A stretch of 63,783 nt of DNA, filler included, from Psammoneis japonica (GCA_008632985.1; 4 parts of 4 records of this genome joined end to end with filler, not necessarily neighbours in it); one strand, 5' to 3'; shown: positions 18,084 to 62,212, numbered from the whole stretch's first letter. The notes: a model not told the origin generated them from the letters alone. Program-made: numbers and translations.

Positions 18084-20269
18084 AAAGTCGTTGAGGACCA
18101 TGACTGGAAAATTGGAGAAAATCCCGAACTGGTCAAGTTCATTTGCTCCATCAACAATGACGAACACAAGGAAGTCCTGGCCTGCAACGACATCATGCAC
18201 CACATTGAGCAAGAAGACGAGGACACTGCCCTCTGGAAGTTCCAATGCATTGTGTCGCACAAAGGACCATTGCAACCCCATGATCCCTCTTGGAAAGGCT
18301 CAAGCCACAACGTCATGCTTGAATGGGAGAATGGGGAGATCACGTCTGAACCCCTTGCCATCATTGCCAAGGACAATCCTGTCACCTGCGCCATTCATGC
18401 ACGTGAGCATGGCCTCCTTGAAGCTGAAGGATGGAGGCATTTTTGCGAGACAGCCCTGCATCAGAAGAAGCCATTCCACATGGCCAACCAAGCCAAGTTG
18501 TGCTCCTTTCACACTGCGCCATGATGCAAGCACAGGCATGAAGTGCCACGGGACTGCAAGCATGCTTTGGCCCTCAATGAGCACAACGGCAACCGCAAGT
18601 GGGGAGATGCAACAGACCTTGAGATGACTCAGCTTGATGAGCACAAGGTCTTCCACGACTGCGGACATTGCAAAGATTCCAGCGCCCCGTTGGGACACAA
18701 GAAGATCTGGGTGCATCTTGTCTGCAATGTCAAACACTGCAAATGGCACAAAGCAAGGCTTGTTGCCGATTGACACCTCACAGACATGCCCATTGACAGT
18801 GTTTGTTCTGGAGTGGTGTCTCTTTGCGGCCTGCAAATGACGATCTTCCCAGCCAAACTCAATGAACTAGAGACTTGGGCCACCAACTTTGGGAACACCT
18901 GTCTCAAAGCTGCGACCAAGGAGAAACTGTGCATCACAGCAGGCCCCGAATTCGGCAAGCTAGAAGGACACATCCTTGTCATCCACAAGGCCTTGCACGG
19001 ACTCCGCAGCTCTGGCCTCAGATGGCATGAATGCTTTGCTGATTGCCTGCATGCCAAAGGCTTCTTCCCGTAAAAAGCTGAGCCCGACATCTGGCTGCGC
19101 AGGAATGGTGACCACTGCAAATGTGTGGCAGCACATGTGGACGACCCAGCCTTTGCCATGAAGGACCCCCAGGCTTTCACAGACACCCTCATGGAGAAAT
19201 GCAAGTTCAAGCTCAAAGGCACTGGACCATTGGAGCTCCATCTTGGTTGCAATTTCACCCGTGATCCAGATGGCACCCTGTGCCTTGCTCCCCGCAAGTG
19301 CATTGAGCACATGGTTGACAACTGCGTGTGCCTCCATGGGGAGAAGCCCTGCACTGATGTGCTTTCACCCCTTGACAAGGGAGACCACCCTGAGCTTGAC
19401 ACTTCCGAATTGCTCAAACCGGGTGGCATCCACCAACTTCAATCCTCAATTGGTTCCCTGCAATGGGCCGCACCCCTTGGTCACATTGACGTTGCTGCGG
19501 CTGTCATGTCTCTGTCTGGCTTCTGTGCAGTGCCCTGCCAGGGCCACCTGGACCGTGCCACACGTGTCTGCAGATTCCTCTCCAAGATGCGTCATGGTGC
19601 CCTCCAAGTGCACACTGAGAAGTCTGACTGTTCAGACCTTCCCAAGCCCATGCATGACTGGGCCCAGTCTGTGCATGGGGAGGCAGAAGAGCTGCTCCAC
19701 AAGATGCGCCTGAGCCACTTGGCAAGTTCGTCACCACAGCACACTGCATTGATGCAAACTTGTTTCATTGCATGCTTGCTGGATGCTCTGTCACCAGCAT
19801 CCTCCATTTCCTCAACAAGTTTCCGGCTGATTGGTTCTCTGAGAAACAAGCTGCAGTTGAGACTGCCACGTGTGGATCTGAGTTTGTCGCCACAAGGACG
19901 TGCGTTGAGCAGATTGTTGACCTGCGCATGACTTTGCGTTGCCTTGGCATCCCACTTGTGAAACATGTTGCATGTTTGGGGACAACAAGTCAGCTGTGGG
20001 CAGTGCCACCATCCGCCGCACTCCAAGTCACACAAGCAACACACCGCCCTCTTGTTCCATCGTGTGTGTGAGGCAATTGCCTCCGGTTTCCTTGAGTTTC
20101 ATTTCGTCAAAGGGTCTTGCAACCCAGCTGACATCCTCAGCAAGCATTGGGGTTGCTCCCAAGTCTGGAATCTCCTTTGTCCTCCAATGTTTTGGAACTT
20201 TGATCCCAAGGCTTTCAACCAATCTGACTTTGAATCCATTGCTGTTGACCCCTCAAGCAAACTGGGGAG
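18084..20269 (+). mobile_element. Decayed Ty1/copia (CoDi-like) pol: RT and RNase H
   Basis: WKFQCIVSHKGP...NVMLEWENGEITSEPL, KARLVAD, DSVCSGVVSL, AGPEFGKLEGHILVIHKALHGLRSSG, AAHVDD (=YVDD), SSIGSLQWA, WFSEKQAAVETATCGSEFVA, NPADILSKHWG. Stops and frameshifts are present. Confidence 0.92.
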
Positions 20270-20514
20270 TGACAGGATTTGAACAAGATTTTTGTTTGTC
20301 GCGCACAATTGTGTGTGCTCTTGGTTCCGCGCGTGTCACGCAATGTGGTTTGCTTTCAAGCCACATGGCTCACAAGAACAATGACAGCAGTGCCAAGATC
20401 ATGACACCAGTCTTTGAGCTCCTGCAACGGTCTCTGCATGGAGACTCATCTGCCATTTAGACAGCAGCAAGGAGTCATTGTTTTCTTCCACCCAGTCATC
20501 TTCAATTTCTGTCA
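20270..20514 (+). mobile_element. Putative 3' LTR (245 bp) of the copia element
   Basis: Follows a purine tract GGGGAG. Begins TGACAGGATTTGAA and ends TTCAATTTCTGTCA (TG...CA with a near-perfect 14-bp terminal inverted repeat). Confidence 0.65.
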
Positions 20515-21235
20515 CCAGGAAAACAGCCAGCTCTTTTAAGAAAAGCAACTTGTTTCAAGGAAAACAGCCAGTTCTTTCAAGGAAAACAACCAGTTGTCTT
20601 TGTTGATGTCAAGAAAGCCAGCCAGTTGCTTCAAGGAAAACAACCAGTTGTTTTTGTTGATGTCAAGGAAAACAGCCAGTTGCTTCAAGGAAAACAACAA
20701 GCTGCTTCAAGGAAAACAACTGGCTGTTTTTGTTGATGTCAAGAAAACTGACCAGTTGTTTCAAGGAAAATGACCTGCTGCACTTTGTTGATGTCAAGAA
20801 AAACAACTGGCTGTTTCAAGGAAAACAGCCAGTTCTTTCAAGAAAAACAACCAGCTCTTTCAAGGAAAACAACCAGCTGTTTTTGTTGATGTCAAGAAAT
20901 GCAGCCAGCTGTTTCAAGGAAAACAACCAGCTTCTTTTGTTGATGCCAAGGAAAACAACGAGTTGCCTTTGTTGATGTCAAGGAAAATGCACAGTTGTTT
21001 CATGGAAAACAGCAAGTTGCTTTTGTCAATGTCAAAAAAACCAGCCAGTTGTTTCAAGGAAAATGACCAGCTGATTTTGTTGATGCCAAAGAAAACAACA
21101 AGTTGCCTTTGTTGGTGTCAAGGAAAATGTGCAGTTGTTTCAAAAAAGAAAACAGCAAGTTGCTTTTGTCAATGTCAAGAAAACCAGCCAGTTGTTTCAA
21201 GGAAAACAACCAGCTGGTTTTGTTGCTGTCAAGGA
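20515..21235 (+). repeat. Degenerate minisatellite, 22-bp unit TTTCAAGGAAAACAACCAGTTG interspersed with a longer unit containing TTTGTTGATG
   Basis: Directly visible tandem units that share the TTTCAAGGAAAACA core with the 23-bp satellite. Confidence 0.85.
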
Positions 21236-21239
21236 CAGC

Positions 21240-21520
21240 TGTGGTTTTGACACTTGCACAGCATCCTCTCATGCTGATGCTCCAGAGGAGCAGGTGTCAG
21301 ATGCCTTTGCCTGGCGCCATCTCAAGAAGCCATCTGCATGGCCTGAATGGCACATGGGCAAGTTCAAGCAACTGGGCCAGTTCTGTGAATTGGACGTGTT
21401 TGCTGCCCCCATCAAGTTTCCCATGGGTGTCATTGTGCTTTGCCCACATTGGCAGCATGGCCTCAAGCATGATGGTGCAAGGCATTCCTGTCAATGTTTT
21501 TGTGGCTCCCTGTGCACAGT
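21240..21520 (+). mobile_element. Copia RT N-terminal fragment (second lineage)
   Basis: WRHLKKPSAWPEWHMGKFKQLGQF...VIVLCPHWQHGLKHDGARHSCQCFCGS resembles the copia RT start (W...E.KQL.QF...LRPHWQY..K.DG.RR.R.CCDGS). Confidence 0.6.
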
Positions 21521-29076: not shown

Positions 29077-29460
29077 GACGCGTTCCAGCCCTAGGTGGGA
29101 CTCCGTGTGACATTGGGCCCGTAGAATTCTACGTGCGAGCTCACGAGAATTTAATCAATGGACACATTTGTCTTCAACATCAAATGAACGGCCAAGTTTG
29201 TGGCACAATTATGCTTCTTACCACTCGACGTTTTTGCAAATGCACCTGCCCTACGCGATTCTTAAGACATTGTAGAATCGCGCTGTAACAATAAATGTCA
29301 AAAGTTTTTGGACGGATCGCTCAATAAGTGTGCCGTAAAATGACACAAAATATCGAAAAAATCACGTAGAAATCTACGTGCGCGACATACGACGTGATTC
29401 AAAAAACTATCGATGTCACAGTTCAGCAGTGCGAGGTCCCACCTAGACCTGGAACACGTC
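29077..29460 (+). mobile_element. MITE / non-autonomous TIR element (384 bp), ~27-bp imperfect TIRs, 4-bp TSD ACTT
   Basis: Left end GACGCGTTCCAGCCCTAGGTGGGACTC. Right end (reverse complement) GACGTGTTCCAGGTCTAGGTGGGACCTC. ACTT at 29073-29076 and 29461-29464. Partial copies at 42560-42860, 53662-53829, 54178-54243 and 60447-60512. Confidence 0.8.
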
Positions 29461-30739: not shown

Positions 30740-32500
30740 AGCCACATTGATGCATGTCGAGTCAAACGATCGTCCCATTGACATGCCTCATCAAGTCGTG
30801 GTCGCAGCTTTTTGCAGGTGGAGAACAGACGTGTTGCGGGGCATGCAAATGCACACCTGTGTTGTCAAAGGCTGCCAATGAGACAGATGGAAGACGAGGC
30901 AGGAGATCATGCCTTCGTCCATCCAGAGTCAAATCCAAATTTATGTTGAAGTCGTGCAACCAAAACTCCATTGCGCAATGATCATTTCAACACTCCTCAG
31001 GGTGCATCGTGTGCAGATGCAAGAGAAGAGCCTCTGCGAGCTTCTGTTGCCACTTGAGGCAGCCATCCAATGGACTGTCCTTGCTGAGTGCTGCTGCAGC
31101 AGAGCCGGTCCATCCAAGTGCTGGCTTGTTGAGACAGGAAACAATCTCCACATTGATTGGAGAACAAGAAAGACCAAGCTGATTGGTTTGGCAGGATGTG
31201 TTTGCAACATTGTTGGCAGAACACATGCAGAAGCGATGCACTCAACCGGCGCCACCACCATTGGATGATTTCCGTCCACAGACAAAGTCTTGTGACTTCT
31301 GGTCACCAAACATTGGCCCTTGCACAAGTCGGACATGCATGCACCGGCGAACACCACCCAAGTTTGCCATCATGAGGGGAGGCTCTGCCTGCAATGCCTT
31401 CAAATCTTCCAAGAGAAAAGACAACATGTCATGGTGAGCCTGCATGTTTGATGAACACGGGGGCTTGCCCGATTGCATGTCTTTGTTCACATTCCCGTTC
31501 TCATCGAGTGCAGCAACCGCACCATCCTTGTCTGTGCTGGGCATGAACCCCAGGTGATGCCAGGCGCAATCATGCTCACGCACATGCCTCTTGGCAAGAA
31601 GAGTGCAGAACAACCAGGTTTCGAGGGGACACCTTTGACAGGCATCAGTCCCTGTCTGATCAGCGCATGAGGCGATTGGCAACAGCAAGTCCTTCTTGCA
31701 GTCAAAGTCACTGGGGAGGGCATTGCATGTGTCAGAGCACCATTTGTTGGACATGATCTCACCAAGATCACAATCGTTGATGGGAACGCACTTGTGGAAA
31801 CGTTCCTGCAGGGACTTGTTCGCGTTGAGATTGTGCTCGTTGTCAAACATCGAGTGGGCGAGCAAATCTCTCAACATGTCCAGCATGCGGAAGCGAGTGA
31901 CTTCCTGCCCACCAATGAGGCGAGTGTCAGGCTGGGGCAGAGAAACCTTCTCGTGGAGTTTCTTTGCCAACAAGTCACGCCCAAGACACTGGGAACAATC
32001 GAATTTCCGCTTCTTGCTGAACCGGCGCAACAGGGTGAGCAGCTGTCCATAGAATTTGTGAGTGGCGCCGGAATTGTCACACAGTGCAATCAGCTCCAAC
32101 AAGGCCTCCTCTGACAGTGCAAAGGTTGGCAGATCAGGTGCATCCCCGTGCAAGGCATCGGAGTTGGCATTGCTGGTGGTGGGGAGGACGCCAGGGGGTG
32201 GATCCTGGAGCAAAATGGATTCTTCACATGCATCCACCGGGGAAGAATGCAAAGAACCGGCAGGAGGAGTGCCAGGGAACATTTTGTAAAGAGAGGAATC
32301 GTCATCGTCACCCACGTTGTCATCACAATCCTCTTCCTCCTCCTCCTCCTCCTCCTTGGATTCTTCATTGGGGGGGGGCGTGGGCTGCAGATCGTTCGCG
32401 GGTGGGAAACTGTGTGAGTCATCATCTCCGTCAAGGCCCGTGCTGGGATTTGGTGCTTTGTCATTCTCAGGTGCAGAAACGGATGACTGACAAGCAATTT
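30740..32500 (-). mobile_element. Decayed Plavaka-like transposase
   Basis: LLELIALCDNSGA, MLRDLLAH, GEIMSNKWCSDTC (W-Y..T-Y), LLLPIASCADQTGTDACQRCPLE (Y.D.TG.D..QRYPLE), AWHHLGFMP, FGDQKSQDFVCGR, VHRFCMC. Confidence 0.7.
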
Positions 32501-33449
32501 GCTGCTTTCGGAACACAAGAACGGCGGCTTGCGACATCTGGCACAATCGAGTTGTGGCAGATGCACTGGGGTGGGCTGCATTGTGCAAGCGGTGGTTGCG
32601 ACGGTGGGAAACAGGCATGCCAAGCTAAGAGGGCCATTGGAAATGAGAAATGCAAAGATGCAGGACAAAACAATTGGGTGCTTGTTCACAACCATTTGTT
32701 GGCGTGCGTGTGTTGGATTGTTTTTTGAATCAAATTGTTGAGTGTGCACCCTGCTGACTTTTGAATGGGAGACACTTGGTGTGGTGGCAATGGCCGTTGG
32801 AGAGTTGGCCACAGGGAGGCAATTGGACATGAGGGCATGCACACATTCGGAAATTAAAGACGGCATTTTTTGAATTGGAGAGAGGATCTGTTTAAATTTC
32901 AATGCAAATGTCCAGCCAAACAAAGAAACATTGGTGAAAGACACTGTTCAGGTGAGCAGAAATTTGTGCTTGGAAATGGAGAAGGATTGCCGTCACCCAC
33001 ACATGGTCCACAAGACTGGCCACATCCATCAACGTGCTTGCAGCACGTGCACATGAGCACACACCAGAAATGAAAACACAGAGCAGCAGCAAGGACAATG
33101 GTGCATGTGGAGCAGGAGCTGAGCTCAACCGAGTGGATGGCGGATGAGGCAAAGGTGATGGAAGACACAGCGAAGGTGAGAGATCATGCAAAGGAAACAT
33201 TGTTCCTCAGTGTGACACTCACATTTGATGAAAAGGAAATGGAGGAAACGGGCATGCTCTGCTGAGATTATGAACAGAACTGCGGCCCCAAGATGATGCA
33301 TGGCCTGCTGAACAAATTGCCTGAGGCAGAGCAAAAAACATGCCTGCGCCACCTGTGGCTTGCGATGAAACAAAAAAAGATGCATCAGGAGTGGCCAGCA
33401 ATTGAGAGGTTGAATGCATGCCAGGCGCAGCAGGACAAGTTCCACGGTG

Positions 33450-37365: not shown

Positions 37366-39540
37366 GTCTTTTCAAGGAAAACAAACATGTTTTCCTTGAA
37401 AAGACACGCTTGTTTTCCTTGAAACCACATGTTTGTTTTCCTTGAAACCACATGCTTGTTTTCCTTGAAACCACATGTTTGTTTTCCTTGAAAAGACATG
37501 TTTGTTTTCCTTGAAACCGCATGTTTGTTTTCCTTTAAACGACATGTTTGTTTTCCTTGAAACGACATGTTTGTTCTCCTTGAAAAGACATGTTTGTTTT
37601 CAAGACATGCCTGTTTTCCTTGAAACGACATGTTTGTTTTTGTTGAAAAGACACGCTTGTTTTCCCTGAAAAGACATGTTTGTTTTCCTTGAAACGACAC
37701 GATTGTTTTTCTTGAAACGACATGTTTGTTCTCCTTGAAACGACATGTTTGTTTTCTTTGAAAAGACATGTTTGTTTTCCTTGAAACCACATGTTTGTTT
37801 TCTTTGAAATGACACATTTGTTTTCCTTGAAAAGACATGTTTGTCTTCCTTGAAATGAAATGTTTGTTTTCCTTGAAACGACATGTTTGTTTCAATTGAA
37901 AAGACATGTTTGTTTTCCTTGAAACAACACGTTTGTTTTCTTTGAAACGACATGTTTGTTTTCCTTGAAACGACACATTTGTTTTCCTTGAAACGACATG
38001 AATGTTTTTCATGAAACAACATGTTTGTTTTCCTTGAAACGACATGTTTGTTTTTCTTGAAACCACGTGTTTGTTTTCTTTGAAAACAAACACGTCCAGA
38101 GCACTCAGCTGAAGAAACTCTGACACAAGAGCAACAGCTCTTTTCCTTTGATCTTGTTGACATGATCATGTGGAACCATGGAGATGCTGCCATGCACGCC
38201 ATCTCTCCTTGATGACCTGTGTTCTCCCTGGCTGGACCTTTCTCACCAAACAGTTGCTCGCCGCTGAACAGAGAGCAGTGCGGGTCACATTGTCAAATGT
38301 GGGCGCAGCTGAAACACAAATCAGCTCATCTTGTGTGGCCCGCAAGCTCTTGGTGGTGGCAGGTTTTGACCGCCAGACATCAAAAAAAGAGTTGCTCAAT
38401 TGATGGTGCTGCTCAAGCACTCCAGAGGTGTCACACATTTTCATCTGGGAGAGGATCAACCCCACAAATTGCTGCACATTGCAGTCTCATGGATCCAACT
38501 GAACTTGTGGACAGGCGCGAGCTTCTTGTGGGGTGCAGATGCTGTTCTCCTGCACATGGAATTGTGTTGGTTTGCTTCCGTCAGTGCGTTCTTGCACAGA
38601 ATTCAAGGCAAACTCATGTTGTTTTAGGAAAGACAGATGTGTCATTTCAAAAAAAATGTCAATTCAAGGAAAACAAACATGTTCTTTCAAGGAAAACAAG
38701 CGTGTCTTTTAAAGGAAAACAAACACGTCGTTTCAAAGAAAACAAACATGTTGTTCCAAAGAAAACAAGCGTGTCTTTTCAAGACAAACAAACACGTCAT
38801 TTCAAGGAAAACAAACATGTCTTTTCAAGGAAAACAAACATGTCGTTTCAAGGAAAACAAGCATGTGGTTTCAAGGAAAACAAACATGTCTTGAAAACAA
38901 ACATGTCTTTTCAGAGAAAACAAACGTGTCATTTCAAGAAAAACTGTGTCGTTTCAAGGAAAACAAGCACGTCTTTTCAAGGAAAACAAACATGTCTTTT
39001 CAAGGAAAACAAACATGTCTTTTCAAGGAAAACAAACATGTCGTTTCAAGGAAAACAAACATGTCTTTTCAAGGAAAACAAACATGTCGTTTCAAGGAAA
39101 AAAATGTGTCTTTTCAAGGAAAACAAACGTGTCATTTCAAGGAAAACAATCATGTGGTTTCAAGGAAAACAAACATGTCTTTTCAATGAAAACAAACATG
39201 TCTTGAAAACAAACATGTCTTTTTAAGGAAAACAAACATGTCTTTTCAAGGAAAACAAGCACGTTGTTTCAAGGAAACAAACATGTGTTTTCAAGGAAAC
39301 AATGTGTCTTTTCAGGGAAAACAAACACGTCTTTTCAAGGAAAACAAACACATCGTTTCAAGGAAAACAAACGTGTCGTTTCAAGGAAAAAAAATGTGTC
39401 TTTTCAAGGAAAACAAACGTGTTGTTTCAAGGAAAACGAACACGTGGTTTCAAGGAAAACAAACATGTCTTTCAATGAAAACAAAGATGTCCTGAAAACA
39501 AACATGTCTTTTTGGGGAAAACAAACATGTCAAGGACATG
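37366..39540. repeat. Two arrays of the 23-bp satellite TTTCAAGGAAAACAAACATGTCG in opposite orientation (37366-38090 minus, 38605-39540 plus)
   Basis: 23-nt period; the translation cycles every 23 aa (SFQGKQTCRFKENKHVVSRKTNM = 3 units). Confidence 0.95.
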
Positions 39541-39544
39541 TTCA

Positions 39545-42048: not shown

Positions 42049-42859
42049 CCCAGGCAGGGTCCGCAACTTCAAGATCATGGGTTGAGTGAGCACTGGGTGC
42101 ACGCTCACGGACAGAAGTGTTCGCGAGCCGGAGGAGCGCTTGGGCACCCAGATCAGAAAGTGCCAGTTGTCTGACTTGGAAAGCAAGGCACGCTGGGCCA
42201 TGTCCTCTGACCTTTGAGTCAAATGGGCATTGGCTGATGTTGAGTTGGAGCTCAAGCAAATTGACAGGTGTCTTCCGACAAATGCGTCGACGCCCTTGAG
42301 CTTGGGAAACAGGCCTGAACTGGATGGCTTGCCTGAGTTAAATGCCAAAACGGCCAACTGTCATCAAGGCTTTCTTGGCGTGCTCCAAGTTGTTTGTTTT
42401 TCTTGAAAAGACATGTTTGTTTTTGTCAAAAAGACATGTTTGTTTTCCTTGAAACAACGCGTTTGTTTTCCTTCCTTGAAAAGACATGTTTGTTTTCCTT
42501 GAAAAGACACGTTTGTTTTCTTTGAAACAACATGTTTGTTTTCCTTTAAACACATGTTTGACGCGTTCCAGGTCCAGGTGGGACTCGCACTGCTGAACTG
42601 TGACATCGACAGTTTTTTGAATCACGTCGCATGTCGCGCACGTAGATTTCTACGTGATTTTTTTGACATTTTGTGTCATTTTACGGTGCACTTGTTGAGC
42701 GATCCATCCAACAACTTTTGACATTTTTTGTTACAGCGCGATTCTACAATGTCTTAAGAATCGTGCAGGGCAGGTGCATTTGCAAAAACGTTGAGTGGCA
42801 AGAGGCATGATTGTGCCACAAACTTTGCCGTTTGTTTGATGTTGAAGACAAACACATTG

Positions 42860-44205
42860 AAAGACCGATCTGAACCGTCCAATCTGGTGGCTGTTTGTTT
42901 TCTTCCTGACATTGTCGCAGAATGCCAGAATCGCGCAGGTGTCCGGATTGCAAAAGATTCCACATGTGCGAGCATCTGCCGTTGAAAACCTGTCTCCAAC
43001 CAACATCCAATTGAGCTCACCAAAGTTCCTTGCATCGACAGTCCACATTGTCGAAGCACGTCATTTCGTCATCAAACCAGGCTTGAAGCATGTCCAGGAG
43101 GAAGTCTCGGAGAGCAGGCACAGCGTCGATCTTGTGCAGCAGCATCAAAGACCCTGCAGGAACTTCCTTCTCCACTGTTCGTTGTTTGGACACCAAAGCA
43201 TGTGGTCCCTGTCTTCCATCGGATGCTCACATGTGATGCATTGGTGCGGTCGAACTGGGTTGTGTTGATTTGCGATCTTGTCAGTCGGCAGCAAGTCATG
43301 GACCAGTTTGACTGTGTCAACATGCTGTTGTGAGTGACGTTTCACCAGAACCGCGCGAGCATTCCAGTCGACAAGGTCAACCACTGAAGGATCCCATTTG
43401 TTCCGTTCGACAACATGTTGCATCAATTCAGGAGCAGCAGCAGCGCACCGAATTTGTTTCTTGTAATTCGTCGTGATTGCACCCCCGTCGATCTCCAGAT
43501 GCAAGTGGCAATGTGGCAGGTGCTTGACCTGATTCGTGTCGTGCAGGCAATGTCCTTGGCAAGCTCCTGCCAATTTGTCCGCTCGGATGTTAACTCTGGC
43601 ATTTAACGGCAATGAGTGGACGGGAGATTGCCTGTCTTGATGTCCTTTTACCCATCGCACTGGAGGCAGAGCGAGATCGGCTGCATCCGACAGTTGCGTC
43701 AAAGCTTGCTGGGTGTGGAGGATCTCATTCAAAATGTCCCAATCCGGAGCGACAGCGTTGGCCCCATGGCAGCGAATGTGAAAGTCGTGTTGTTCGCATG
43801 CGTCGTTCTCGGGATCACTCACCGGCAGGATGGGAGTCAATTCAGACAAACAGTCAACCAGTGCTTTGTCATCGCAATGAATCACTGCATCCAAAGGAAC
43901 GGCAATGCGGCAGCATTTGCACAGCCGGCAGATGAATCTTGCAATGGATGGAATGCCGCAAGCTTCTGCGTGGTGAGAGGACGGAGTCTTCCCAAAAACT
44001 GGCCCTGCACAATCCACTGGTGGTGCACCATCCATGGCAATGGTCCACCCAAAGGTGGCTCCTTCTTGGACCGATCCATCACTGCCTGTGGTGAGATGAG
44101 ATGAAAGAAAGTGTCGAACCACTGTTCGTGGAGAAACATGAAAGACCAAGTCTTCAAATGGCACAGATTCCCACTTGTCGAGTCCCTGAAGATGCGACAG
44201 AAAGG
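42860..44205 (-). mobile_element. Decayed non-LTR retrotransposon 3' part: RNase H and CCHC knuckle
   Basis: GSDGSV...ATFGW, PSSHHAEACG (SSYRAE.YG), HCDDKALV, WVKGHQD, NIRADKLA, CITC...EDRDHMLWC, IGWRQVFNGR. Confidence 0.85.
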
Positions 44206-45220
44206 AATGTTTGTTTTCCTTGAAACGACACGTTTGTTTTCCTTGAAGAGACATGTTTGTTTTCTTTGAAATGACGTGTTTGTTTTTCTTGAAAATGCAC
44301 GTTTGTTTTCCTTGAAAAGACATGATTGTTTTCCTTGAAACCACATGTTTGTTTTCCCTGAAATGACGCATTTGTTTTCCTTGAAAAGACACGTTTGTTT
44401 TCTTTAAAAAACATGTTTGTTTTCCTTGAAAAGACANNNNNNNNNNNNNNNNNNNNNNNNNNNNNNNNNNNNNNNNNNNNNNNNNNNNNNNNNNNNNNNN
44501 NNNNNNNNNNNNNNNNNNNNNNNNNNNNNNNNNNNNNNNNNNNNNNNNNNNNNNNNNNNNNNNNNNNNNNNNNNNNNNNNNNNNNNNNNNNNNNNNNNNN
44601 NNNNNNNNNNNNNNNNNNNNNNNNNNNNNNNNNNNNNNNNNNNNNNNNNNNNNNNNNNNNNNNNNNNNNNNNNNNNNNNNNNNNNNNNNNNNNNNNNNNN
44701 NNNNNNNNNNNNNNNNNNNNNNNNNNNNNATTTCAAGGAAAACAAACATGTCTTTTCAAGGAAAACAAACGTGTCATTTCAAAGAAAACAAACATGTGGT
44801 TTCAAGGAAAACAAACATGTCTTTTCAAGGAAAACAAACATGTCGTTTCAAGGAAAACAAACATGTCGTTTCAAGAAAAACAATCGTGTCATTTCAAGGA
44901 AAACAAACATGTCTTTTCAGGGAAAACAAGCGTGTCTTTTCAATGAAAACAAACATGTCGTTTCAAGGAAAACAGGCATGTCTTGAAAACAAACATGTCT
45001 TTTCAAGGAGAACAAACATGTCGTTTCAAGGAAAACAAACATGTTGTTTCAAGGAAAACAAACATGTGGTTTCAAGGAAAACAAACATGTCTTTTCAAGG
45101 AAAACAAACATGTGGTTTCAAGGAAAACAAACACGTGGTTTCAAGGAAAACAAACATGTGGTTTCAAGGAAAACAAGCATGTCTTTTCAAGGAAAACATG
45201 TTTGTTTTCCTTGAAAAGAC
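44206..45220. repeat. 23-bp satellite arrays (44206-44436 minus, 44730-45220 plus, separated by a gap); short array also at 42390-42558
   Basis: Same TTTCAAGGAAAACAAACATGTC unit. Confidence 0.95.
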
Positions 45221-46579: not shown

Positions 46580-46912
46580 GCCCCAAAAGGGGACAAACCA
46601 AACGGGTTTGCCGCGCAGGTGCGGCACTTCCCACCCCCAAAATGTGGCTGCTGCCCTGGAGTGGGGCAGCGTCAGGTTGCATTTGTCTGTCGATCTGACC
46701 CAAGCGGAGCCAGCGTCAGTTCAAGGGGGCTGAATGAATGCTGATGTGCTGTCACAAACACAGGCAGTTTGTGTGCCATTGGCGATTGGTTCACTGTTGC
46801 TCAGTCACGGCCCAGCAGCACAACATCCCACAATTCTAGAACCTGTTGATGCTGTTCAACGATCTCTGTCTTGTCTTGCACCCAATTCTCAGCTGTCATG
46901 GCAGTGTTTGGT

Positions 46913-50306: not shown

Positions 50307-50309
50307 CCA

Positions 50310-52770: not shown

Positions 52771-52827
52771 GAGTTGAGTGCCAGAGCGGGACTTGGGCCT
52801 GTCTGCAGAGAAGACTTCAATGTCAAG

Positions 52828-53510: not shown

Positions 53511-54379
53511 TCAGACTGGACATTGGATGTTTGCCGCTCAAGACAGCACAGAGCCAACAGAGACAAAATTTGCCAGGGGCCCCACTCAAGATGGCGCCTG
53601 CCACTCCAGACTGGATGTTGAGCACTCGAGACACTGAAGCTCACCACTTGAGACGATGACAGACGCGCTCCAGGTCCAGGTGGGACCTCGCACTGCTGAA
53701 CTGTGACATCGACAGTTTTTTGAATCACGTCGCATGTTGCGCACGCAGATTTCTGCGTGATTTTTTTGACATTTTTTGTCATTTTATGGTGCACTCATTG
53801 AGCGATCCGTCCAACAACTTTTGACATTTNNNNNNNNNNNNNNNNNNNNNNNNNNNNNNNNNNNNNNNNNNNNTTAATTAATTAANNNNNNNNNNNNNNN
53901 NNNNNNNNNNNNNNNNNNNNNNNNNNNNNCTGTGCTGCTCTTTTCTTTGGAAAGCCCAGGCTTGCCCACTTCATCTCCTGATTCCTCGTTGATCGGATCG
54001 AACTGCTCCTGCACATTGCGGGCTCTTTCCACCTTTTTGCGCTGCAAAGCAGCCCATTCCCAGGTGCACAAACTTGCTCAACACACAAAATGAGATTGTT
54101 GGACAGCAAGTCATGTGGGGAGAAAACCACCTGCAGTTCTCTTGGATTGCAGCTTGGTCAACCACACAAAGACATTTGACGGGTTCCAGCCCTGGGCAGG
54201 ACTCCATGTGACATTGGGCCCGTAGAATTCTGCATGCGAGCTCCACAGCAAACTTGTGCTGCAATGAAAACGCAAATGATTGCAGCCAGAAAAAGAGGCA
54301 ATTTTACGAGCGTGTCTCCTCCTTCATGCTTGGAGCACATCATTGACAGTTTGCCCAGGCATGTTCTTCAGATGGTCAA

Positions 54380-55400
54380 AGCTTTTTCAAACAAGTCAAG
54401 AAGGTTGTCACAACCTTTTCAAACAAGTCAAAATGGTTGTCACAACTTTTTCAAACAAGCCAAAAAGGCTGTCATGACTTTTTCAAACAAGTCAAGAAGT
54501 TGTCACAACTTTTCCAAGCAAGTCAAAAAGGTCGTCACAACTTTTTCAAATGAGTCAAAAAAGTTGTCACAACTTTTTCAAAGGAGTCAAAAAGAACTTT
54601 TACAATGAGTCAAAAAGGTTGTCACGACTTTTTCAAACAAGTCAAAAAAAGGTTGTCACAACTTTTTCAAACAAGTCAAAAAGGTTGTCACAACTTTTGC
54701 AAACAAGTCAAAAAGGTTGTCACAACTTTTGCAAACAAGTTAAAAAGGTTGTTGCAACTTTTTCAAACAAGTCAAAAGGTTGTCACAACTTTTCCAAACA
54801 AGTCAAAAAGGTTGTCACAACTTTTGCAAACAAGTTAAAAAGGTTGTTGCAACTTTTTCAAACAAGTCAAAAAGGTTGTCACAACTTTTCCAAACAAGTC
54901 AAAAAGGTTGTCACAACTTTTGCAAACAAGTCAAAAAGGTTGTCACAACTTTTGCAAACAAGTTAAAAGGGTTGTTGCAACTTTTTCAAACAAGTCAAAA
55001 AGGTTGTCACAACTTTTTCAAACAAGTCAAAAAGGCTTTTGCCTTTTTTTCAAACAAGTCAAAAAGGTTTTTGCAGCATTTGCAAACAAGTCAAAAATGT
55101 TGTTGCAATTTTTTCAAACAAGTCAAAAAGGTCATCAAAACCTTTTCAAACAAGTCAAAAAGGTTGTGACAACTTTCAAACAAGCCAAAAAGTTTGTCAC
55201 AATTTTTTCAAACAAGTCAAAAAGGTTGTTGCAACTTTTTCAAACAAGTCAAAAAGGTTGTCGCAACTTTTGCAAACAAGTCAAAAAGGTTGTTGCAACT
55301 TTTGCAAACAAGTCAAAAAGGTTGTCACAACTTTTTGAAACAAGTCAAATGGGTTGTCACAACTTTTTTACAAGCAAATGAGTCAAAAAGGTTGTCAGAA
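54380..55400 (+). repeat. 32-bp satellite AAACAAGTCAAAAAGGTTGTCACAACTTTTTC
   Basis: 32-nt period (e.g. 54669, 54701), about 30 copies. Each unit has an imperfect internal dyad AAAAGGTTG-TCA-CAACTTTT. Confidence 0.95.
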
Positions 55401-58400: not shown

Positions 58401-60619
58401 AACATTGACAGGGCCTTCATCCAGACTCATGCTCACTGTCCTTGTCTTGTGGGCGAGAAGGAAAAAGAAGAACAACATGAAAAAAATGGCAGGAAATTGG
58501 CAAACATTGCATTGTCTTCCAGATTTGAATGACTCTCATGGGCATGACGTGTCTGTGTTTTGATTTTTTTGTCTCGCACTCACAATGGACATTGCACTTT
58601 TGAATTGCTGTCGAAATTCAGGATGTCATCTCCGTTGAAAATTGATGACAGCCACATCAAAAAGCAAGCATGACTTTTTGTTGTTGCACACACACACACA
58701 TTTTCAAATTTCAGTGTTGCTCACAACAACCCGCGCAATGTCACAGAGAAAAATGGAGTGGCTGGCTGTCTCAACACAACCCAAATGATGGCTGCACTCT
58801 TGAACAGCAACACTCCTCTCATTGTTGCCGTGAAAAGATCAAGATGTTGTCCCCAGCACCGCTGGCAAAGAAGAGAAAGACAAATGAGGCCATCAAGCCA
58901 ATGAGCTCAAGGCTTCAGGCAGTGTTGAAGAGAACAGGTGTGCAGGCAGTGCATGGTGCCATGAAATCAGAAGCAGAGAAGGTTGCTGGAAACAATCTCT
59001 TTCCACAGGTGAAGTTTCTCAGTCTGTCAGAATTGGCAAGCTGGAGGGAAAGGAAAAAGAAAAGAAACTCAAGGCGGCAAGGAGGAAAAAGAAAAGCAGG
59101 AAAAGTCAAACCGTGACAAGAGCAAAGAAGAAGAAATCCCGTTTGTGCCAACATGGGATCCATTCATCCCAGACACTGTCGCCGGCGGCAAACAAAGGGA
59201 CACGCAGGCATGCAAGTGGTTCTGTGATCACATCCTGCCTCAAACAAAGCAAAAGCAGGCACGGAGCAGTGCCGTCAAAACTGGGAACGCACAGGTCTCA
59301 CATTTGTTTGTCATCGGTGATGAAGCTTTGGCGCTGTCAGCCATGGAGAATTGCTGGCAGGTGTGGGCATGCAGGAATGAGGAGGAGGCGGTGAAAGAAT
59401 TGGGTGAAGAAATGGACCCCGAAGAAACAAGGCCTGCACTTTGGCGCACAAAGCCAAAGGAACAACGAGTGTCTTGGGGAGACAACGGGATCAAGCGGCC
59501 CAACAATTTGTGCCAAGAGGTGACGAAAGATGGAGACTCCAAGGAGGGCAAGGAATTTGAAAAGTGACAAGGATCAGGAGGAAGGCGCAAAAGGCAAAAC
59601 AAATGATGGAAGAGACGAGTCCGATGGAGACAAGTCCGACAATGATCATCAGCTTGGTTTGAGAGAGTTGCAGCAAGAAAGTGCGCATGTGGTTGACATG
59701 GCACTCGGTCACTGCACCATGAACGTAGCAAGAAATTGACTTGACAGATGAAATGCTTTTCTTGTTTAAAACAAAGTTCGCACAAATTGACAAACCAAGG
59801 ATTGTGCTGCAATGCAGCCACGCATTGGCATGTGGCGATGAGGTGGAGCCAGATGTGGTGATGTGGATGCAGTGAAAAATGGCACACATGATTGTCAACA
59901 AATTGTTGCAACGCAGGTGCAGCAAACTTGCAGCCAGAGGCAGGCCTGTTGCTGCATGATGACAATTTGTTGAAGCACATTTAAAAAACACCATTGTGTG
60001 AATCTGCACATTGTTGACATTTCGTGCACTCTGATGCTTGCCCTCAACCTCCGCAAAACCAAGATCCCAACATCTGCCGCTGGTGCTCCCCGTGCCAACT
60101 CTCTCTGTGCTGCTCTTTCCTTGGGAAAGCCCAGGCTTGCCCACATCATCTCCTGATTCCTCGTTGATCAGATCGAACTGCTCCTGCACATTGCGGGCTC
60201 TTTCCTCCTTTTTGTGCTGCAAAGCAGCCCATTCCCAGGTGTGCAAACTTGTTCAACACACAAAATGAGATTGTTGGACAGCAAGTCATGTGGGGAGAAA
60301 CCCACCTGCAGCACAAACAAATGACACTTGTCAACTTCACGGCAAACAAACAACAACCTGCACATTTTTTGCCAGCTCTCTCTCTCTTGGAACATGCCTG
60401 ACCAGTTCTCTTGGATTGCAGCTTGGTCAACCAAACAAAGATGTTTGATGGGTTCTAGCCCTGGGCGGGACTCCGTGTGACATTGAGCCCGCAGAATTCT
60501 GCATGCGAGCTCCACAGCAAATTTGTGCTGCAACGAAAATGCAAATGATTGCAGCCAGAAAAAGAGGCAATTTTACGAGCATGTCTCCTCCTTCATGCTT
60601 GCCCAGGCATGTTCTTCAG

Positions 60620-62130
60620 ACATCAAAGAATTTGTTCTGGTGAATGTTGAAAAAAGAAAGCCTTTGGCTTCGCAAAACAGGAAGCATGGAACAATTTTGC
60701 AGAACATGACATGCAGAAATGCACGTGCGCAACACGCGCTTGCTGCAGTGAGATTTTGCAGGTGCGAGTCCTTCGGGCATCGGATCTCATCTGATCACCG
60801 CACCCACTTTGTTGGCTTCAATGCCGTTGCATTGTTTGGCAACCCTGCCGTTGATTCACCTCGTGCGGAATGCCGTGACTTGCTGCTGAACTCTCCGAAG
60901 CATGTCACCACCTGCCTTGAGACTGTGGCGCCCCTTCCACAAAGTCAAAACGTCAGAGAATGCACCGAATCACTGACACAGCTCAAGACGCCTGACCACA
61001 AATTGGCAGAGAGACTTGATCGAGACATGCTGCAGCTCTTCTCAGCATCCACCAAATGTTGTCGCAAGTGCAAAGAGCCGGAATGGTCTGTCAAATTGGC
61101 CAACTTACGACAACAGATCTTCGCATTGTCCAGGATGATGTCCATGTTCCGCAATGAAGTGAGTGTGGTTCCCACAAATCTGCGCGCCAAATTTGACCTC
61201 AAAGATTCCTTCATTCTTCCATTGACATCACAGGAGTGTGCCGCTGCACTTTGGAAAGCTCAGTCAGAGTGCCATCAAGTCACACGAGAGAGTCAGAAAC
61301 ACTGTGAAGAAGAAAGAGATGCACGGATCGCAGAACTCGAGCTAGAATGTGTGAAACAGTCAAAGGCAAAAGCCCGGATGCTGCAAAACCAACGCTGCGC
61401 TGAAGAAACCAAACGAGTCTTTTGGAAAATCAATGCATGCAAAAAGTCAGAAGACTCCAGCATGCGAGCCATTCAAATTCCAGCAGATCCTCGAGATGAT
61501 CCAAAGACATGTGAGAATTGGACGACGACAGATGCTCCAGACGATGTCGAACCCGCACTTCAGCACCGCAGTCAATGCCATTTGGGGCAGGCACATGGAA
61601 CTCCTCCTGCGGTTCCTCCCTTGTCAGTGGATCTCGGGTGTGAAGGAGATGCCATCATGGCTGACCTGACCTTGGACGGTGAACACGAAACGGAACAACT
61701 GAGCCGGGCTGCATCATTGCTGATCCAGCATCTCTGACGACGCACACCCCCAGCAGCCCCTGGCGCCCTTTCTCCTGAAGCCCTGCGGTCAAAGACTGCA
61801 TTGTGGTCTGAATCCACCTCTGCATCATTGAAATCGGGGACTCATTTGGGGCACTGGAAAGCCATGCATGCTCCTCATTCTCATGCATCTGATTGCGACA
61901 ACGATGGGAATCCATCCAAGCGGAAAGAACTGCTGGATTCGGCTCAACAGACTTTTGTGGCAATGCGGCTCAACTTGATTGATTGCGCTCTGAAGTGGGG
62001 CCACTCGTGTGATTGCACTTCTTGCTGCAACAGGAACACTCCAGCAATTGTCGGATTGTGTGCGAAGAGCAATGGTGTGCACGAAAGAGCAGTCAAAGTC
62101 AACAGACGTGTTCCAGCCGCACGTGAACCA
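60620..62130 (+). mobile_element. Decayed non-LTR retrotransposon ORF2 fragment (end of endonuclease through pre-RT region)
   Basis: FGHRISSDHR (APE-type SDHR), ALFGN, EWSVKLA, HLGQAHGTP..VPPLS, WSESTSASLKSGTHLGHWKA (E.TSTSPSG.HLGHYKA). Confidence 0.8.
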
Positions 62131-62132
62131 AA

Positions 62133-62212
62133 GGGCCAGGGTTGGGGTTAGGGTCAGGGCCAGGGTTGGGGTCAGGGGTTGGGGTCAGGGTCAGGGGTTG
62201 GGGTTGGGGTTG
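62133..62212 (+). repeat. Proximal degenerate telomeric repeats
   Basis: 13 units: 6 TTGGGG-type, 4 TCAGGG, 2 CCAGGG, 1 TTAGGG. Confidence 0.9.

What the first reader, a model, noticed from the sequence alone, without database searches (positions are those of the whole stretch)
18084..62212. Repeat-restricted TpA erasure: candidate RIP-like genome defence converting TA to TG/CA (A:T->G:C)
Seen: over ~44 kb of transposon and satellite DNA (and at 1-3825) TA is nearly absent on both strands, while the gene island and intergenic DNA at 3.83-17.98 kb use TA normally. Unrelated element classes (copia, gypsy, LINE, Plavaka-like, MITE, satellites) are all affected, so this is a property of the host compartment and not of one element's polymerase. 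AA/TT runs are abundant, so it is not general AT loss or GC-biased conversion. Established: fungal RIP is C->T at CpA and creates TpA, which is the opposite direction. Inference: a host process targets adenine in TpA within repeats or heterochromatin. Candidates are a TadA/ADAT-like DNA adenine deaminase, deamination of a modified adenine, or an error-prone Pol-eta-like polymerase (known A->G at TA/WA) recruited to methylated DNA. I do not know of a published description, and a literature check is needed.
Basis: partly seen in the sequence, partly recalled or inferred. Interest (0 to 1): 0.95.

Follow-up and report, generated by a model that had tools for sequence, protein, structure and literature searches.

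The report
TA dinucleotides erased from diatom repeats
In this diatom's transposon-rich, near-telomere DNA almost every TA step has been mutated to TG or CA while neighbouring genes are untouched, which looks like a second natural case of a TA-specific "editing" defence so far reported only in one preprint on an unrelated alga.

Summary
TA observed/expected is 0.02 in 1-3825 and 0.04 in 18084-62212, against 0.60 in the gene island. TG and CA are 1.6-1.9 times expected. The window is four pieces joined by artificial spacers, so only the edge at about 3826 is native.

The direction TA->TG/CA is shown by four ancestral-state tests:
- A copia reverse transcriptase keeps 0 of 19 conserved tyrosines (9 Cys TGY, 7 His CAY).
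- A transposon (MITE) family has one intact and two partly converted copies.
- 11 of 12 inner telomere units are no longer TTAGGG (5 TTGGGG, 4 TCAGGG, 2 CCAGGG).
- Duplicated copies differ by TG/CA doublets.

Both strands are hit equally. TTAA is largely spared. CpG decays in the same DNA but about four times more slowly.

The host is a diatom. A 2026 bioRxiv preprint measured this same TpA-only A:T->G:C hypermutation in integrated viruses of Bigelowiella natans, so the kind is no longer undescribed. I found no description in diatoms.

The enzyme is unknown. A DNA adenine deaminase acting at 5'-TA is my best guess. Gypsy and Plavaka elements were not verified, and the satellites probably never contained TA.

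The parts
1..3825 (.). TA-free, strongly CpG-depleted repeat DNA of unclassified origin, directly abutting genes
   Evidence: 4 TA where 250 are expected; CpG o/e 0.11. No Pfam hit in any of its ORFs. Contigs of run X1 reproduce it, and 40 of the 76 contigs laid on piece 1 are only 90-95% alike, which suggests diverged copies elsewhere in the genome.
3826..3900 (.). Native sharp edge of the TA-free state
   Evidence: Last TA before the edge is at 3393. TA then occurs at 3827, 3836, 3842, 3844, 3871, 3873 and 3900. X1 record 4 (3606-4161, 3 other letters) bridges the edge.
3826..17983 (.). Gene island used as internal control (aminotransferase, conserved diatom protein, Myb, JmjC/F-box and others)
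   Evidence: TA o/e 0.60 and CpG o/e 1.03. Pfam hits. Diatom homologues.
18084..20459 (+). Ty1/copia-type pol remnant (RVT_2), fully converted
   Evidence: RVT_2 E 2e-12, 47.7 bits against a cut-off of 31.6. 982 homologues, and all 120 listed carry PF07727. 0 of 19 conserved Tyr kept: 9 Cys, 7 His, 1 Trp, 1 Leu, 1 Phe. Tyr 0.0%, Cys 6.0%, His 7.9%, against homologue medians of 4.5, 1.1 and 3.7.
29092..29446 (+). MITE copy with inverted ends (CTAGGTGGGAC...GTCCCACCTAG) that still has normal TA and CpG inside TA-free DNA
   Evidence: The sequence shows 19 TA in about 355 bases. It is the reference copy of alignment A1.
42570..42852 (-). Partly converted MITE copy
   Evidence: Against the 29-kb copy, 8 of 15 TA sites read TG or CA, 6 are kept and 1 reads AA. 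4 of 19 CpG sites read TG or CA.
53672..53829 (-). More converted MITE copy, cut by the piece end
   Evidence: 7 of 8 TA sites are converted and 3 of 12 CpG sites are converted. One TA site reads CA in the 42-kb copy and TG here.
43148..44434 (-). C-terminal remnant of a LINE-like (non-LTR) retroelement protein
   Evidence: 1571 homologues at E<=0.001. 2 of the 6 long ones scanned carry an N-terminal Exo_endo_phos domain. 0 of 3 conserved Tyr kept: Cys, His, Val. There is no direct Pfam hit.
31245..32624 (-). ORF with a weak, unconfirmed Plavaka-transposase likeness
   Evidence: E 4.8e-4, 19.9 bits, below the cut-off of 26.3. No hit in a longer read-through.
37388..39531 (.). 23-bp satellite arrays; further arrays at 44200-45198, 46915-48185, 49431-50307 and 52846-53509
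   Evidence: In 69 monomers of 23 bp the variable steps are CA/CG/TG mixtures, which is CpG decay, and no step points to a lost TA.
54375..55368 (.). 32-bp satellite
   Evidence: 13 monomers were examined. One step reads CA 8, TG 4, CG 1, so the ancestor was probably CG.
62142..62212 (+). Inner, degenerate telomere repeats converted at their TA
   Evidence: Of 12 hexamer units, 5 are TTGGGG, 4 TCAGGG, 2 CCAGGG and 1 TTAGGG. 62213-62773 reads N.
62774..63783 (+). Canonical TTAGGG telomere tract, not converted
   Evidence: 150 TTA(G)n units, 7 TTTA, 3 TT, 2 TA, 1 ATTA, and no TCA units.

Best explanation
The window comes from a diatom nuclear genome. Its mobile and subtelomeric DNA has undergone a host-driven, DNA-level hypermutation that changes the dinucleotide TpA to TpG or CpA (A:T->G:C). 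The other 15 dinucleotides are left alone, apart from ordinary decay of (probably methylated) CpG.

How the process behaves:
- It works after an element has inserted, copy by copy and in several rounds, until almost no TA is left.
- It hits both strands equally.
- It stops within a few bases of the neighbouring genes.
- It removes TA about four times faster per site than CpG is lost.
- It is strongly slowed in the context TTAA.

Its effect is to destroy the reading frames of transposons: every tyrosine codon is lost, and TAA and TAG disappear.

Shown: the signature, its direction, the post-insertion timing, strand symmetry, the context bias and the sharp edge.

Inferred: that it is a defence aimed at silenced or repeated DNA, and that it is the same kind of process measured in real time in Bigelowiella natans.

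Guessed: the enzyme. My commitment is a deaminase-fold enzyme of the TadA/ADAT2 kind that deaminates adenine preceded by T in DNA, giving inosine, which is read as G. The natural tRNA substrate of such enzymes is A34 preceded by the invariant U33 (recalled knowledge). I give this about 0.45 of the probability mass within the overall reading.
For: Depletion: TA o/e is 0.02 and 0.04 against 0.60 in genes, and TG/CA is 1.6-1.9 times expected.

Direction:
- Copia RT against 80 homologues: 0 of 19 conserved Tyr columns are kept (9 TGY, 7 CAY, 1 TGG, 2 other), whereas 227 of the other 282 conserved columns are kept. Fisher p = 4e-13.
- LINE-like ORF: 0 of 3 conserved Tyr kept.
- MITE family: 8 of 15 and 7 of 8 TA sites are converted in two copies relative to an intact copy. 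The same site reads CA in one copy and TG in the other.
- Inner telomere repeats: 11 of 12 units are no longer TTAGGG. 9 of these are TTGGGG or TCAGGG and 2 are CCAGGG. The distal tract holds 150 canonical units and no TCA unit.
- CA/TG is the commonest doublet difference between in-window duplicates, 14 of 34 doublets.
- TG->CA doublets appear at 634/635, 653/654 and 1666/1667 between the window and X1 contigs.

DNA level, both strands: TG 3853 against CA 3841. Runs test z = 1.29. The 300-bp dispersion is 1.04 times binomial.

Context: 34 of 98 residual TA sites are TTAA, against 18 of 548 in genes (p = 3e-18). There are no survivors in ATAT, GTAC or ATAC/GTAT.

Not a native trait of the element family: copia homologues have median Tyr 4.5%, and 8 metagenome copia loci have TA o/e 0.47-0.70.

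Not a simple read or assembly error: X1 contigs at word depth about 60 reproduce the TA-free DNA and bridge the edge. TA is read normally in the embedded MITE.

Precedent: in B. natans mutation-accumulation lines, 230 of 231 mutations in two integrated viral regions were A->G or T->C. All of these GC-biased mutations fell on TpA, at about 6e-7 per site per generation. That genome also holds 124 clusters of TpA-poor, CpA+TpG-rich windows enriched in transposon domains.
Against: - No de novo mutation was observed here. Everything is inferred from end states.
- No genome is held for this window. Neither a genome-wide map nor a search for the enzyme was possible.
- The trigger is unknown. One MITE copy sits unmutated inside TA-free DNA. 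A purely regional, constitutive process should have hit it, unless the insertion is very recent, the element is too short to be recognised, or the process is episodic.
- The satellites give no evidence of TA loss.
- 2 of the 12 inner telomere units read CCAGGG, which a strict TA-only rule does not explain.
- Run X1 has no library type on record and may be the data the assembly was made from, so it is not independent proof.
- Adenine as the target, rather than thymine, cannot be told from a palindromic dinucleotide.
Confidence: 0.7

Rival explanations
1. Thymine, not adenine, is the target. An oxygenase or other modifying enzyme (TET/JBP-like) converts T followed by A in silenced DNA to a derivative such as 5-hydroxymethyl- or 5-formyl-uracil. 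This derivative mispairs with G at replication and gives T->C.
For: TA is its own complement, so T->C on one strand gives exactly the same TG/CA outcomes and the same strand symmetry. From recalled knowledge, modified thymines in other protists (base J, 5hmU) are enriched at TpA and in telomeric and repeat DNA. The inner telomere repeats are affected here.
Against: No such enzyme or base is shown for this organism. No tool here could test it. The modified thymines I know of are mostly read as T and are only weakly mutagenic (recalled), whereas conversion here is nearly complete.
Confidence: 0.12
2. Error-prone repair or translesion synthesis recruited to heterochromatin (Pol-eta-like A->G at WA motifs) causes the changes.
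Against: WA includes AA, yet AA/TT is enriched (o/e about 1.4), not depleted, and AT is near normal at 0.80. Specificity is absolute for TA. Context classes such as ATAT and GTAC have no survivors at all, which is hard to reach by polymerase error.
Confidence: 0.06
3. Editing happens on RNA (ADAR- or ADAT-like A-to-I with U at -1) and is fixed by reverse transcription of edited retroelement transcripts.
For: A 5' U preference is typical of A-to-I editing enzymes (cited in the preprint's discussion). Two of the affected elements are retroelements.
Against: On the copia sense strand, A->G outcomes (10 TGN codons) and T->C outcomes (7 CAY codons) are about equal, and TG 3853 is close to CA 3841 overall. 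RNA editing of the template strand would give only one of the two. A TIR-bounded MITE and telomere repeats, which do not pass through cDNA, are converted. Copies differ after insertion.
Confidence: 0.03
4. Artefact: a base-calling, polishing or library effect, or a modified base misread, writes TA as TG/CA in this compartment.
For: The library type of the only DNA holder is not on record, and it may be the assembly's own data.
Against: - Contigs built from exact 31-letter words at depth about 60 reproduce the TA-free DNA (27 of 76 laid contigs are 99% or more alike) and bridge the edge.
- TA is read normally in a MITE embedded in the TA-free DNA and 1 base beyond the edge.
- The changes are fixed as either TG or CA per site and per copy.
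- The same DNA shows ordinary CpG decay and frameshifts, as old transposons do.
Confidence: 0.04
5. The elements are natively TA-poor, or were selected to lose TA (for example to avoid a TA-cutting nuclease), without any directed mutation.
For: The 23-bp satellite monomer seems never to have held TA. Word avoidance is known in phages (earlier notes of this scan, unrelated genomes).
Against: The losses destroy conserved tyrosines and the reading frames, so they are not selected for element function. Relatives have normal Tyr and TA. Family members in one genome range from intact to converted. TTAGGG repeats of known ancestry are converted.
Confidence: 0.03

Closest known systems
TpA-specific hypermutation of integrated viral DNA in Bigelowiella natans (Mettrop et al., bioRxiv 10.64898/2026.01.13.699255; I read the abstract, Results and Discussion)
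   Same: Only A->G and T->C, only at TpA, giving TpG/CpA. Confined to foreign or mobile DNA while the rest of the nucleus is normal. The long-term trace is TpA-poor, CpA+TpG-rich blocks enriched in transposon domains. The process is not constitutive there (11 of 15 lines), which fits the unmutated MITE here.
   Different: - Another lineage: a diatom, against a chlorarachniophyte.
- The targets seen here are transposons and subtelomeric repeats, not a giant-virus or virophage insert.
- Conversion here is near saturation (o/e 0.02-0.04). The B. natans NCLDV region has Rho 0.45 and the virophage region is not depleted.
- Here there is no direct rate measurement.
- TTAA sparing, strand-run analysis and co-occurring CpG decay are not mentioned in that text. 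A search of the main text found 0 occurrences of 'TTAA', 'context' and 'flanking'.
Repeat-induced point mutation (RIP) of ascomycete fungi
   Same: Post-insertion transition hypermutation that riddles repeated or mobile DNA, acts copy by copy, has sharp borders and is accompanied by cytosine methylation. The outcome is dead transposons.
   Different: RIP is C->T, mainly at CpA, and creates TpA. Here TpA is destroyed and G+C rises. RIP needs duplicated DNA and a RID-type enzyme in the pre-meiotic dikaryon. Neither repeat dependence nor life-cycle stage is known here.
Decay of methylated CpG (5-methylcytosine deamination), known on diatom repeats (methylation mainly at CpG: PMC5124317, passages read)
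   Same: Also yields TpG/CpA and is present in the same DNA. 14 of 21 conserved Arg columns read His, Cys, Trp or Gln. 102 single differences between duplicates are CG against TG or CA.
   Different: It cannot remove TpA, and it is about 4 times slower per site than the TA loss in the MITE copies.
A-to-I editing by ADAR or ADAT2/3 and APOBEC-type hypermutation of retroelements
   Same: Deaminase logic with a fixed 5' neighbour (U/T before the edited A). Used against repeats and viruses.
   Different: Those act on RNA or on single-stranded cDNA and leave strand-asymmetric tracts. Here both DNA strands are hit equally and non-retro elements are affected.

Membership tests
TpA->TpG/CpA hypermutation of foreign DNA (B. 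natans type) | Changes are A->G/T->C and fall on TpA | tested here: met
   Ancestral-state tests. Tyr codons: 16 of 19 read TGY or CAY, plus 1 TGG. MITE TA sites: 15 of 23 read TG or CA. Telomere units: 9 of 12 read TTGGGG or TCAGGG.
TpA->TpG/CpA hypermutation of foreign DNA (B. natans type) | TpA depletion coupled to CpA+TpG enrichment in clustered blocks | tested here: met
   TA o/e 0.02-0.04 with TG/CA 1.6-1.9 over 3.8 kb plus 44 kb.
TpA->TpG/CpA hypermutation of foreign DNA (B. natans type) | Restricted to foreign or mobile DNA, with host genes spared | tested here: met
   The edge at 3826 lies inside one contiguous piece, and genes have o/e 0.60. Affected DNA holds copia, LINE-like and MITE remnants. 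This was tested only within this window.
TpA->TpG/CpA hypermutation of foreign DNA (B. natans type) | Directly measured, greatly raised de novo rate | not testable with these tools
   Needs mutation-accumulation or pedigree resequencing. The only indirect figure is that TA is lost about 4 times faster than CpG in MITE copies.
Fungal RIP | C->T at CpA that raises TpA | tested here: not met
   TpA is nearly absent and CpA is enriched. The direction is the opposite.
Fungal RIP | Dependence on sequence duplication above a length threshold | tested here: inconclusive
   1-3825 and 22-36 kb have no partner inside the window, but X1 contigs 90-95% alike suggest copies elsewhere. The unmutated element is short at about 355 bp. 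No genome was available to count copies.
RNA-level A-to-I editing fixed by retrotransposition | Changes on the transcribed strand only, in retroelements only | tested here: not met
   TG 3853 against CA 3841. Copia sense strand: 10 TGN against 7 CAY. MITE and telomere repeats are converted.
Pol-eta-type WA mutagenesis | A->G at both TA and AA | tested here: not met
   AA/TT o/e is about 1.4.
Ty1/copia retrotransposon (element at 18084-20459) | RVT_2 reverse transcriptase domain above Pfam's cut-off | tested here: met
   E 2e-12, 47.7 bits against 31.6. All 120 listed homologues carry PF07727.
Plavaka/KDZ DNA transposon (ORF 31245-32624) | Plavaka transposase domain above Pfam's cut-off | tested here: not met
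   19.9 bits against a cut-off of 26.3. No hit in the 760-residue read-through.

The most novel reading that the evidence does not exclude
A TpA-specific DNA-editing genome defence (A:T->G:C) is an old, shared system of SAR-clade algae, present in diatoms as well as chlorarachniophytes. It drives silenced transposons, viral inserts and even interstitial telomere repeats to complete loss of TA. Its context fingerprint (ATAT and GTAC fastest, TTAA nearly immune) points to one sequence-reading enzyme that could be identified and might serve as a natural double-strand-context adenine editor.
Probability: 0.45. Interest if true: 0.88.

Novelty: new member of a known kind. Interest (0 to 1): 0.72.

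Why it matters
RIP was long the only known case of a cell deliberately mutating its own repeats. A TA-specific, GC-raising counterpart has so far been seen only in one preprint on one alga.

A second, saturated case in a diatom, a major marine primary producer from another lineage, would matter in three ways:
- It would suggest the system is widespread.
- It gives a natural end-point data set for reading the enzyme's context rules. TTAA sparing is new here.
- It warns annotators. TA-free DNA loses two of the three stop codons and fills with long false ORFs: 159 ORFs of 110 codons or more lie in about 48 kb here.

If the enzyme is a DNA adenine deaminase, it would be the first natural one used in eukaryotic genome defence.

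Tried and rejected
- Whole genome: none is held, so there is no genome-wide TA map and no search for deaminases.
- Pfam on ORFs of TA-free DNA: 133 of the 159 ORFs of 110 aa or more were scanned (26 in satellite arrays were left out). This gave one weak Plavaka hit and two chance-level hits.
- Pfam on shorter ORFs: 150 of the 284 ORFs of 60-109 aa gave no hit, not even for the copia RT pieces. Fragment scans are therefore insensitive, and I did not run the other 134.
I replaced it with three targeted frames.
- No tRNA gene and no Rfam family was found.
- Satellites as a test of TA loss: they show only CpG decay.
- Atlas search of the JmjC protein gave no useful taxonomy.
- Earlier notes of this scan: nothing on this genome and no look-alike. 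Word hits concern phages only.
- Metagenome search for the Tyr-poor copia homologue P0217: its own contig was not recovered, and the 8 relatives found have normal TA.
- No RNA holder is listed for the stretch. Run X2 has no cover on 1-4200. This is a blank, not evidence of silence.
- Literature (searches; one search failed on syntax): no description of TA erasure in diatoms. Only the B. natans preprint describes the kind.
- Rejected readings: GC-biased conversion (AA/TT and AT are not depleted), CpG decay alone, and Pol-eta WA errors.

Full report
**What the window is.** The 63,783 bases are not one contiguous stretch. Three identical spacers (44 N, TTAATTAATTAA, 44 N) at 17984-18083, 36048-36147 and 53830-53929 join four pieces: 1-17983, 18084-36047, 36148-53829 and 53930-63783. 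Further N runs lie at 44437-44729, 48186-48760 and 62213-62773.

Piece 4 ends in a TTAGGG telomere at 62774-63783. Pieces 2, 3 and 4 share a MITE family, and pieces 3 and 4 are rich in satellites.

The host is a diatom. An aminotransferase (4508-5740) has only diatoms among its named best hits, at 49-55% identity; the best unnamed hit is 63%. A conserved protein of unknown function (7043-8536) is 79-86% identical to proteins named from Striatella, Attheya, Odontella, Fistulifera, Mayamaea, Trieres, Nitzschia and Entomoneis; the best unnamed hit is 93%. No protein of the window is in the collection at 100% identity, so the organism is not Bigelowiella natans. No whole genome is held for it.

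Counts:

| Region | TA observed | TA expected from base composition | o/e |
|---|---|---|---|
| 1-3825 | 4 | 250 | 0.02 |
| 18084-62212 | 119 | 2909 | 0.04 |
| Gene island 3826-17983 | 548 | 918 | 0.60 |

Of the 119 TA in 18084-62212, 6 lie in the artificial spacers and 19 in one unmutated MITE. That leaves 94 native residual sites.

43 of the 44 one-kb windows from 18001 to 61001 are at o/e 0.14 or less. The exception (0.28) holds the MITE. All 14 gene windows lie between 0.39 and 0.79.

TG and CA are 1.62-1.92 times expected in the TA-poor DNA and 1.06-1.17 in genes. AA/TT (about 1.4) and AT (0.80) are not depleted, and G+C is the same in both compartments (47-49%). General A+T loss and GC-biased conversion are therefore excluded. 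CpG is also low in the TA-poor DNA (0.11 and 0.52, against 1.03).

The native edge is at about 3826. It is sharp: the last TA before it is at 3393, and 7 TA follow in the 75 bases from 3827.

**Is it an artefact?** One public run (coded X1, 2019, library type not on record) holds the stretch as contigs built from exact 31-letter words at depth about 60.
- 27 of the 76 contigs laid on piece 1 are 99% or more alike.
- They cover 1-3825, and one (3606-4161, 3 other letters) bridges the edge.
- TA is read normally one base beyond the edge and in a 355-bp element embedded in the TA-free DNA.
- Each site is fixed as TG or as CA.

X1 may be the assembly's own data, so this is not fully independent. 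A base-calling or polishing artefact is nevertheless unlikely (I give it 0.04).

**Direction of change: four tests with a known or inferable ancestor.**

(1) Copia element. The frame 18084-20459 is a copia-type pol remnant (RVT_2, E 2e-12, above Pfam's cut-off). I aligned it to 80 homologues and examined 301 columns where at least 70% of homologues agree.
- 19 conserved Tyr columns: none is Tyr in the window. They read 9 Cys (TGY), 7 His (CAY), 1 Trp (TGG), 1 Leu and 1 Phe.
- 227 of the other 282 columns are unchanged (p = 4e-13). Examples: His 12 of 12, Trp 8 of 8, Asn 6 of 6.
- The translated remnant has Tyr 0.0%, Cys 6.0% and His 7.9%. Medians over the 120 listed homologues are 4.5, 1.1 and 3.7.
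- The same alignment shows CpG decay. Of 21 conserved Arg columns, 7 are kept and 14 read His, Cys, Trp or Gln.

(2) LINE-like remnant (43148-44434, minus strand). It has 1571 homologues, and 2 of the 6 long ones scanned have an N-terminal Exo_endo_phos endonuclease. It keeps 0 of 3 conserved Tyr: Cys, His and Val.

(3) MITE family with inverted ends CTAGGTGGGAC...GTCCCACCTAG. One copy (29092-29446) has 19 TA and many CpG. Two other copies are partly converted.

| Copy | TA sites converted to TG/CA | CpG sites converted |
|---|---|---|
| 42570-42852 | 8 of 15 (6 kept, 1 reads AA) | 4 of 19 |
| 53672-53829 | 7 of 8 | 3 of 12 |

One TA site reads CA in one copy and TG in the other. The two converted copies share several changes, so they are not fully independent.

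(4) Telomere repeats, whose ancestor is known. Of the 12 units next to the masked stretch (62142-62212), 5 are TTGGGG, 4 TCAGGG, 2 CCAGGG and only 1 TTAGGG. The distal tract has 150 TTA(G)n units and no TCA unit.

Two further observations support this.
- Among five pairs of in-window duplicates, CA/TG is the commonest doublet difference (14 of 34 doublets; next is AC/GT with 6). Most single differences are CpG against TpG/CpA: 102 of the 203 singles counted.
- Three TG->CA doublets are among the 40 differences listed between the window and X1 contigs.

**What is and is not affected.**
- Converted: a copia retroelement, a LINE-like retroelement, MITE copies, interstitial telomere repeats, and many kilobases of unclassifiable DNA. 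That DNA gave no Pfam hit in 133 ORFs of 110 aa or more, nor in 150 of 284 shorter ORFs. These fragment scans also missed the copia RT, so they are insensitive.
- Not verified: gypsy (nothing found) and Plavaka (19.9 bits against a cut-off of 26.3; nothing in a longer read-through).
- Not informative: the 23-bp satellite (69 monomers of 23 bp examined) and the 32-bp satellite (13 monomers). They vary at CA/CG/TG steps, which is CpG decay, and their monomers probably never held TA.
- Not affected: the genes, the distal telomere and the MITE copy at 29 kb.
- Not a family trait: eight metagenome copia loci (relatives of homologue P0217, 76-82% identical to it) have TA o/e 0.47-0.70.

**Properties of the process.**
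- *Both strands equally.* In non-satellite TA-free DNA there are 3853 TG and 3841 CA. The order of TG and CA along the strand is random (3904 runs against 3847 expected, z = 1.29). Imbalance per 300 bp is binomial (1.04; genes 1.99). On the copia sense strand, 10 TGN and 7 CAY outcomes alternate. This argues against editing of one RNA strand, against transcription-coupled damage, and against long one-strand tracts, unless many overlapping rounds erased them.
- *Context.* Of the 98 residual TA sites, 34 are TTAA, against 18 of 548 in genes (odds ratio 15.6, p = 3e-18). The 34 sites are scattered over all pieces. ATAT, GTAC and ATAC/GTAT have no survivors, although the gene island holds 120, 104 and 61 (both strands counted). 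In the half-converted MITE copy, the TA sites in ATA/TAT contexts are the ones already gone, and GTA and TTAA sites remain. TTGA/TCAA are still enriched 1.83-fold, so TTAA is slow but not immune.
- *Rate.* Pooling the two MITE copies, 15 of 23 TA sites are lost against 7 of 31 CpG sites. This is a per-site rate ratio of about 4 (rough, because the copies share ancestry). Blocks with CpG o/e still at 0.5-0.8 are already at TA o/e 0.03.
- *Gradual and possibly episodic.* Copies are found at 0%, about 55% and about 90% conversion.
- *Sharp border.* There is no leakage into flanking unique DNA.

**Mechanism.**

Shown: a DNA-level, TpA-specific A:T->G:C process acts on mobile and subtelomeric DNA after insertion.

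Inferred: it is a host defence aimed at silenced or repeated DNA. The same DNA has the CpG deficit expected of cytosine methylation, which in diatoms sits mainly at CpG (PMC5124317, passages read).

Guessed: the enzyme. I favour a deaminase of the TadA/ADAT2 kind working on DNA. Its natural target, A34 of tRNA, always follows U33 (recalled), so a T-before-A rule is its native specificity. The B. natans authors name an ADAT2 homologue as a candidate.

Rivals:
- A thymine-modifying route gives the same outcome, because TA is palindromic. It cannot be excluded from sequence.
- Pol-eta-like WA errors are disfavoured because AA is untouched.
- RNA editing plus reverse transcription is disfavoured by strand symmetry and by the converted MITE and telomere repeats.
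- Native composition or selection is disfavoured because conserved tyrosines are destroyed.

**What is known.** Full-text searches found one relevant paper: Mettrop et al., bioRxiv 10.64898/2026.01.13.699255. I read the abstract, Results and Discussion.

In mutation-accumulation lines of the chlorarachniophyte B. natans:
- 231 of 302 nuclear mutations fell in an integrated giant-virus region and a virophage region.
- 230 of these 231 were A->G or T->C, and all of these GC-biased mutations were at TpA.
- The rate was about 6e-7 per site per generation, roughly 1000 times the background.
- This occurred in 11 of 15 lines only.

The genome also has 124 clusters of TpA-poor, CpA+TpG-rich windows and a set of TpA-free predicted genes enriched in transposase and reverse-transcriptase domains.

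That is the same signature as here, so the kind is no longer undescribed. A word search of its main text found no mention of TTAA, flanking context or telomeres. I found nothing on diatoms.

**Verdict.** The list of element classes is only partly right, and the claim that no description exists has been overtaken. This is a new member, in a diatom and at saturation, of a kind of genome defence known from one preprint. The new details are TTAA sparing, strict strand symmetry, conversion of interstitial telomere repeats, coexistence with slower CpG decay, and an unmutated short element inside converted DNA.

Limits: there is one composite window, no genome, no de novo events, no enzyme, and one DNA run of unknown library type.

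Noticed in passing
17984-18083, 36048-36147, 53830-53929: The window is four pieces joined by N44-TTAATTAATTAA-N44 spacers. The TA counted at 18029-18037, 36093-36101 and 53875-53883 is artificial. Adjacency across these points means nothing.
   Followed up: yes
29092-29446; also 42570-42852, 53672-53829, 54186-54243, 60457-60512: A MITE family of about 355 bp with inverted ends CTAGGTGGGAC/GTCCCACCTAG. Its copies are at different stages of TA conversion, and the intact copy sits inside fully converted DNA. This may mean a recent insertion, a length threshold or episodic activity.
   Followed up: partly
62142-62212: Two of the 12 inner telomere units read CCAGGG. This needs a T->C outside a TA step and is not explained by a strict TA-only rule.
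   Followed up: no
TA-free DNA as a whole (1-3825, 18084-62212): With TAA and TAG erased, only TGA stops remain. 159 stop-to-stop ORFs of 110 codons or more occur in about 48 kb, and almost none has a family match. Gene predictors will call false genes here.
   Followed up: partly
7043-8536 (+), upstream exons near 6584-6684: A protein of unknown function is very strongly conserved among diatoms (79-93% identity over 497 aa; some hits carry PF24768). Contigs of run X2 join across two GT..AG intervals (6386->6584 and 6684->6969), so X2 looks like spliced RNA although it is not on record as RNA.
   Followed up: no
16810-17982: A 318-bp tandem repeat (3.7 copies, 84% matches) lies inside the long ORF 16369-17979 and is cut by the end of piece 1. 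It is a repeat-containing gene with normal TA.
   Followed up: no
37388-39531, 44200-45198, 46915-48185, 49431-50307, 52846-53509: A 23-bp satellite occurs in many arrays. Monomer variation (CA/CG/TG at two steps) suggests an ancestral unit with a CGCG core that is decaying by CpG loss.
   Followed up: partly
protein P0217 (JGI metagenome, 821 aa): This copia homologue has only 0.9% Tyr with raised Cys (3.4%) and His (4.9%). It may be a partly TA-converted copy in another organism. Its own contig was not recovered, and 8 relatives have normal TA.
   Followed up: partly
1-3825 against X1 contigs: Contigs laid on the TA-free part differ from the window far more than those on the genes: for example 24 other letters in 827 bases, against 8 in 11,439. 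Most differences are transitions. I could not tell whether these are alleles or paralogues.
   Followed up: no
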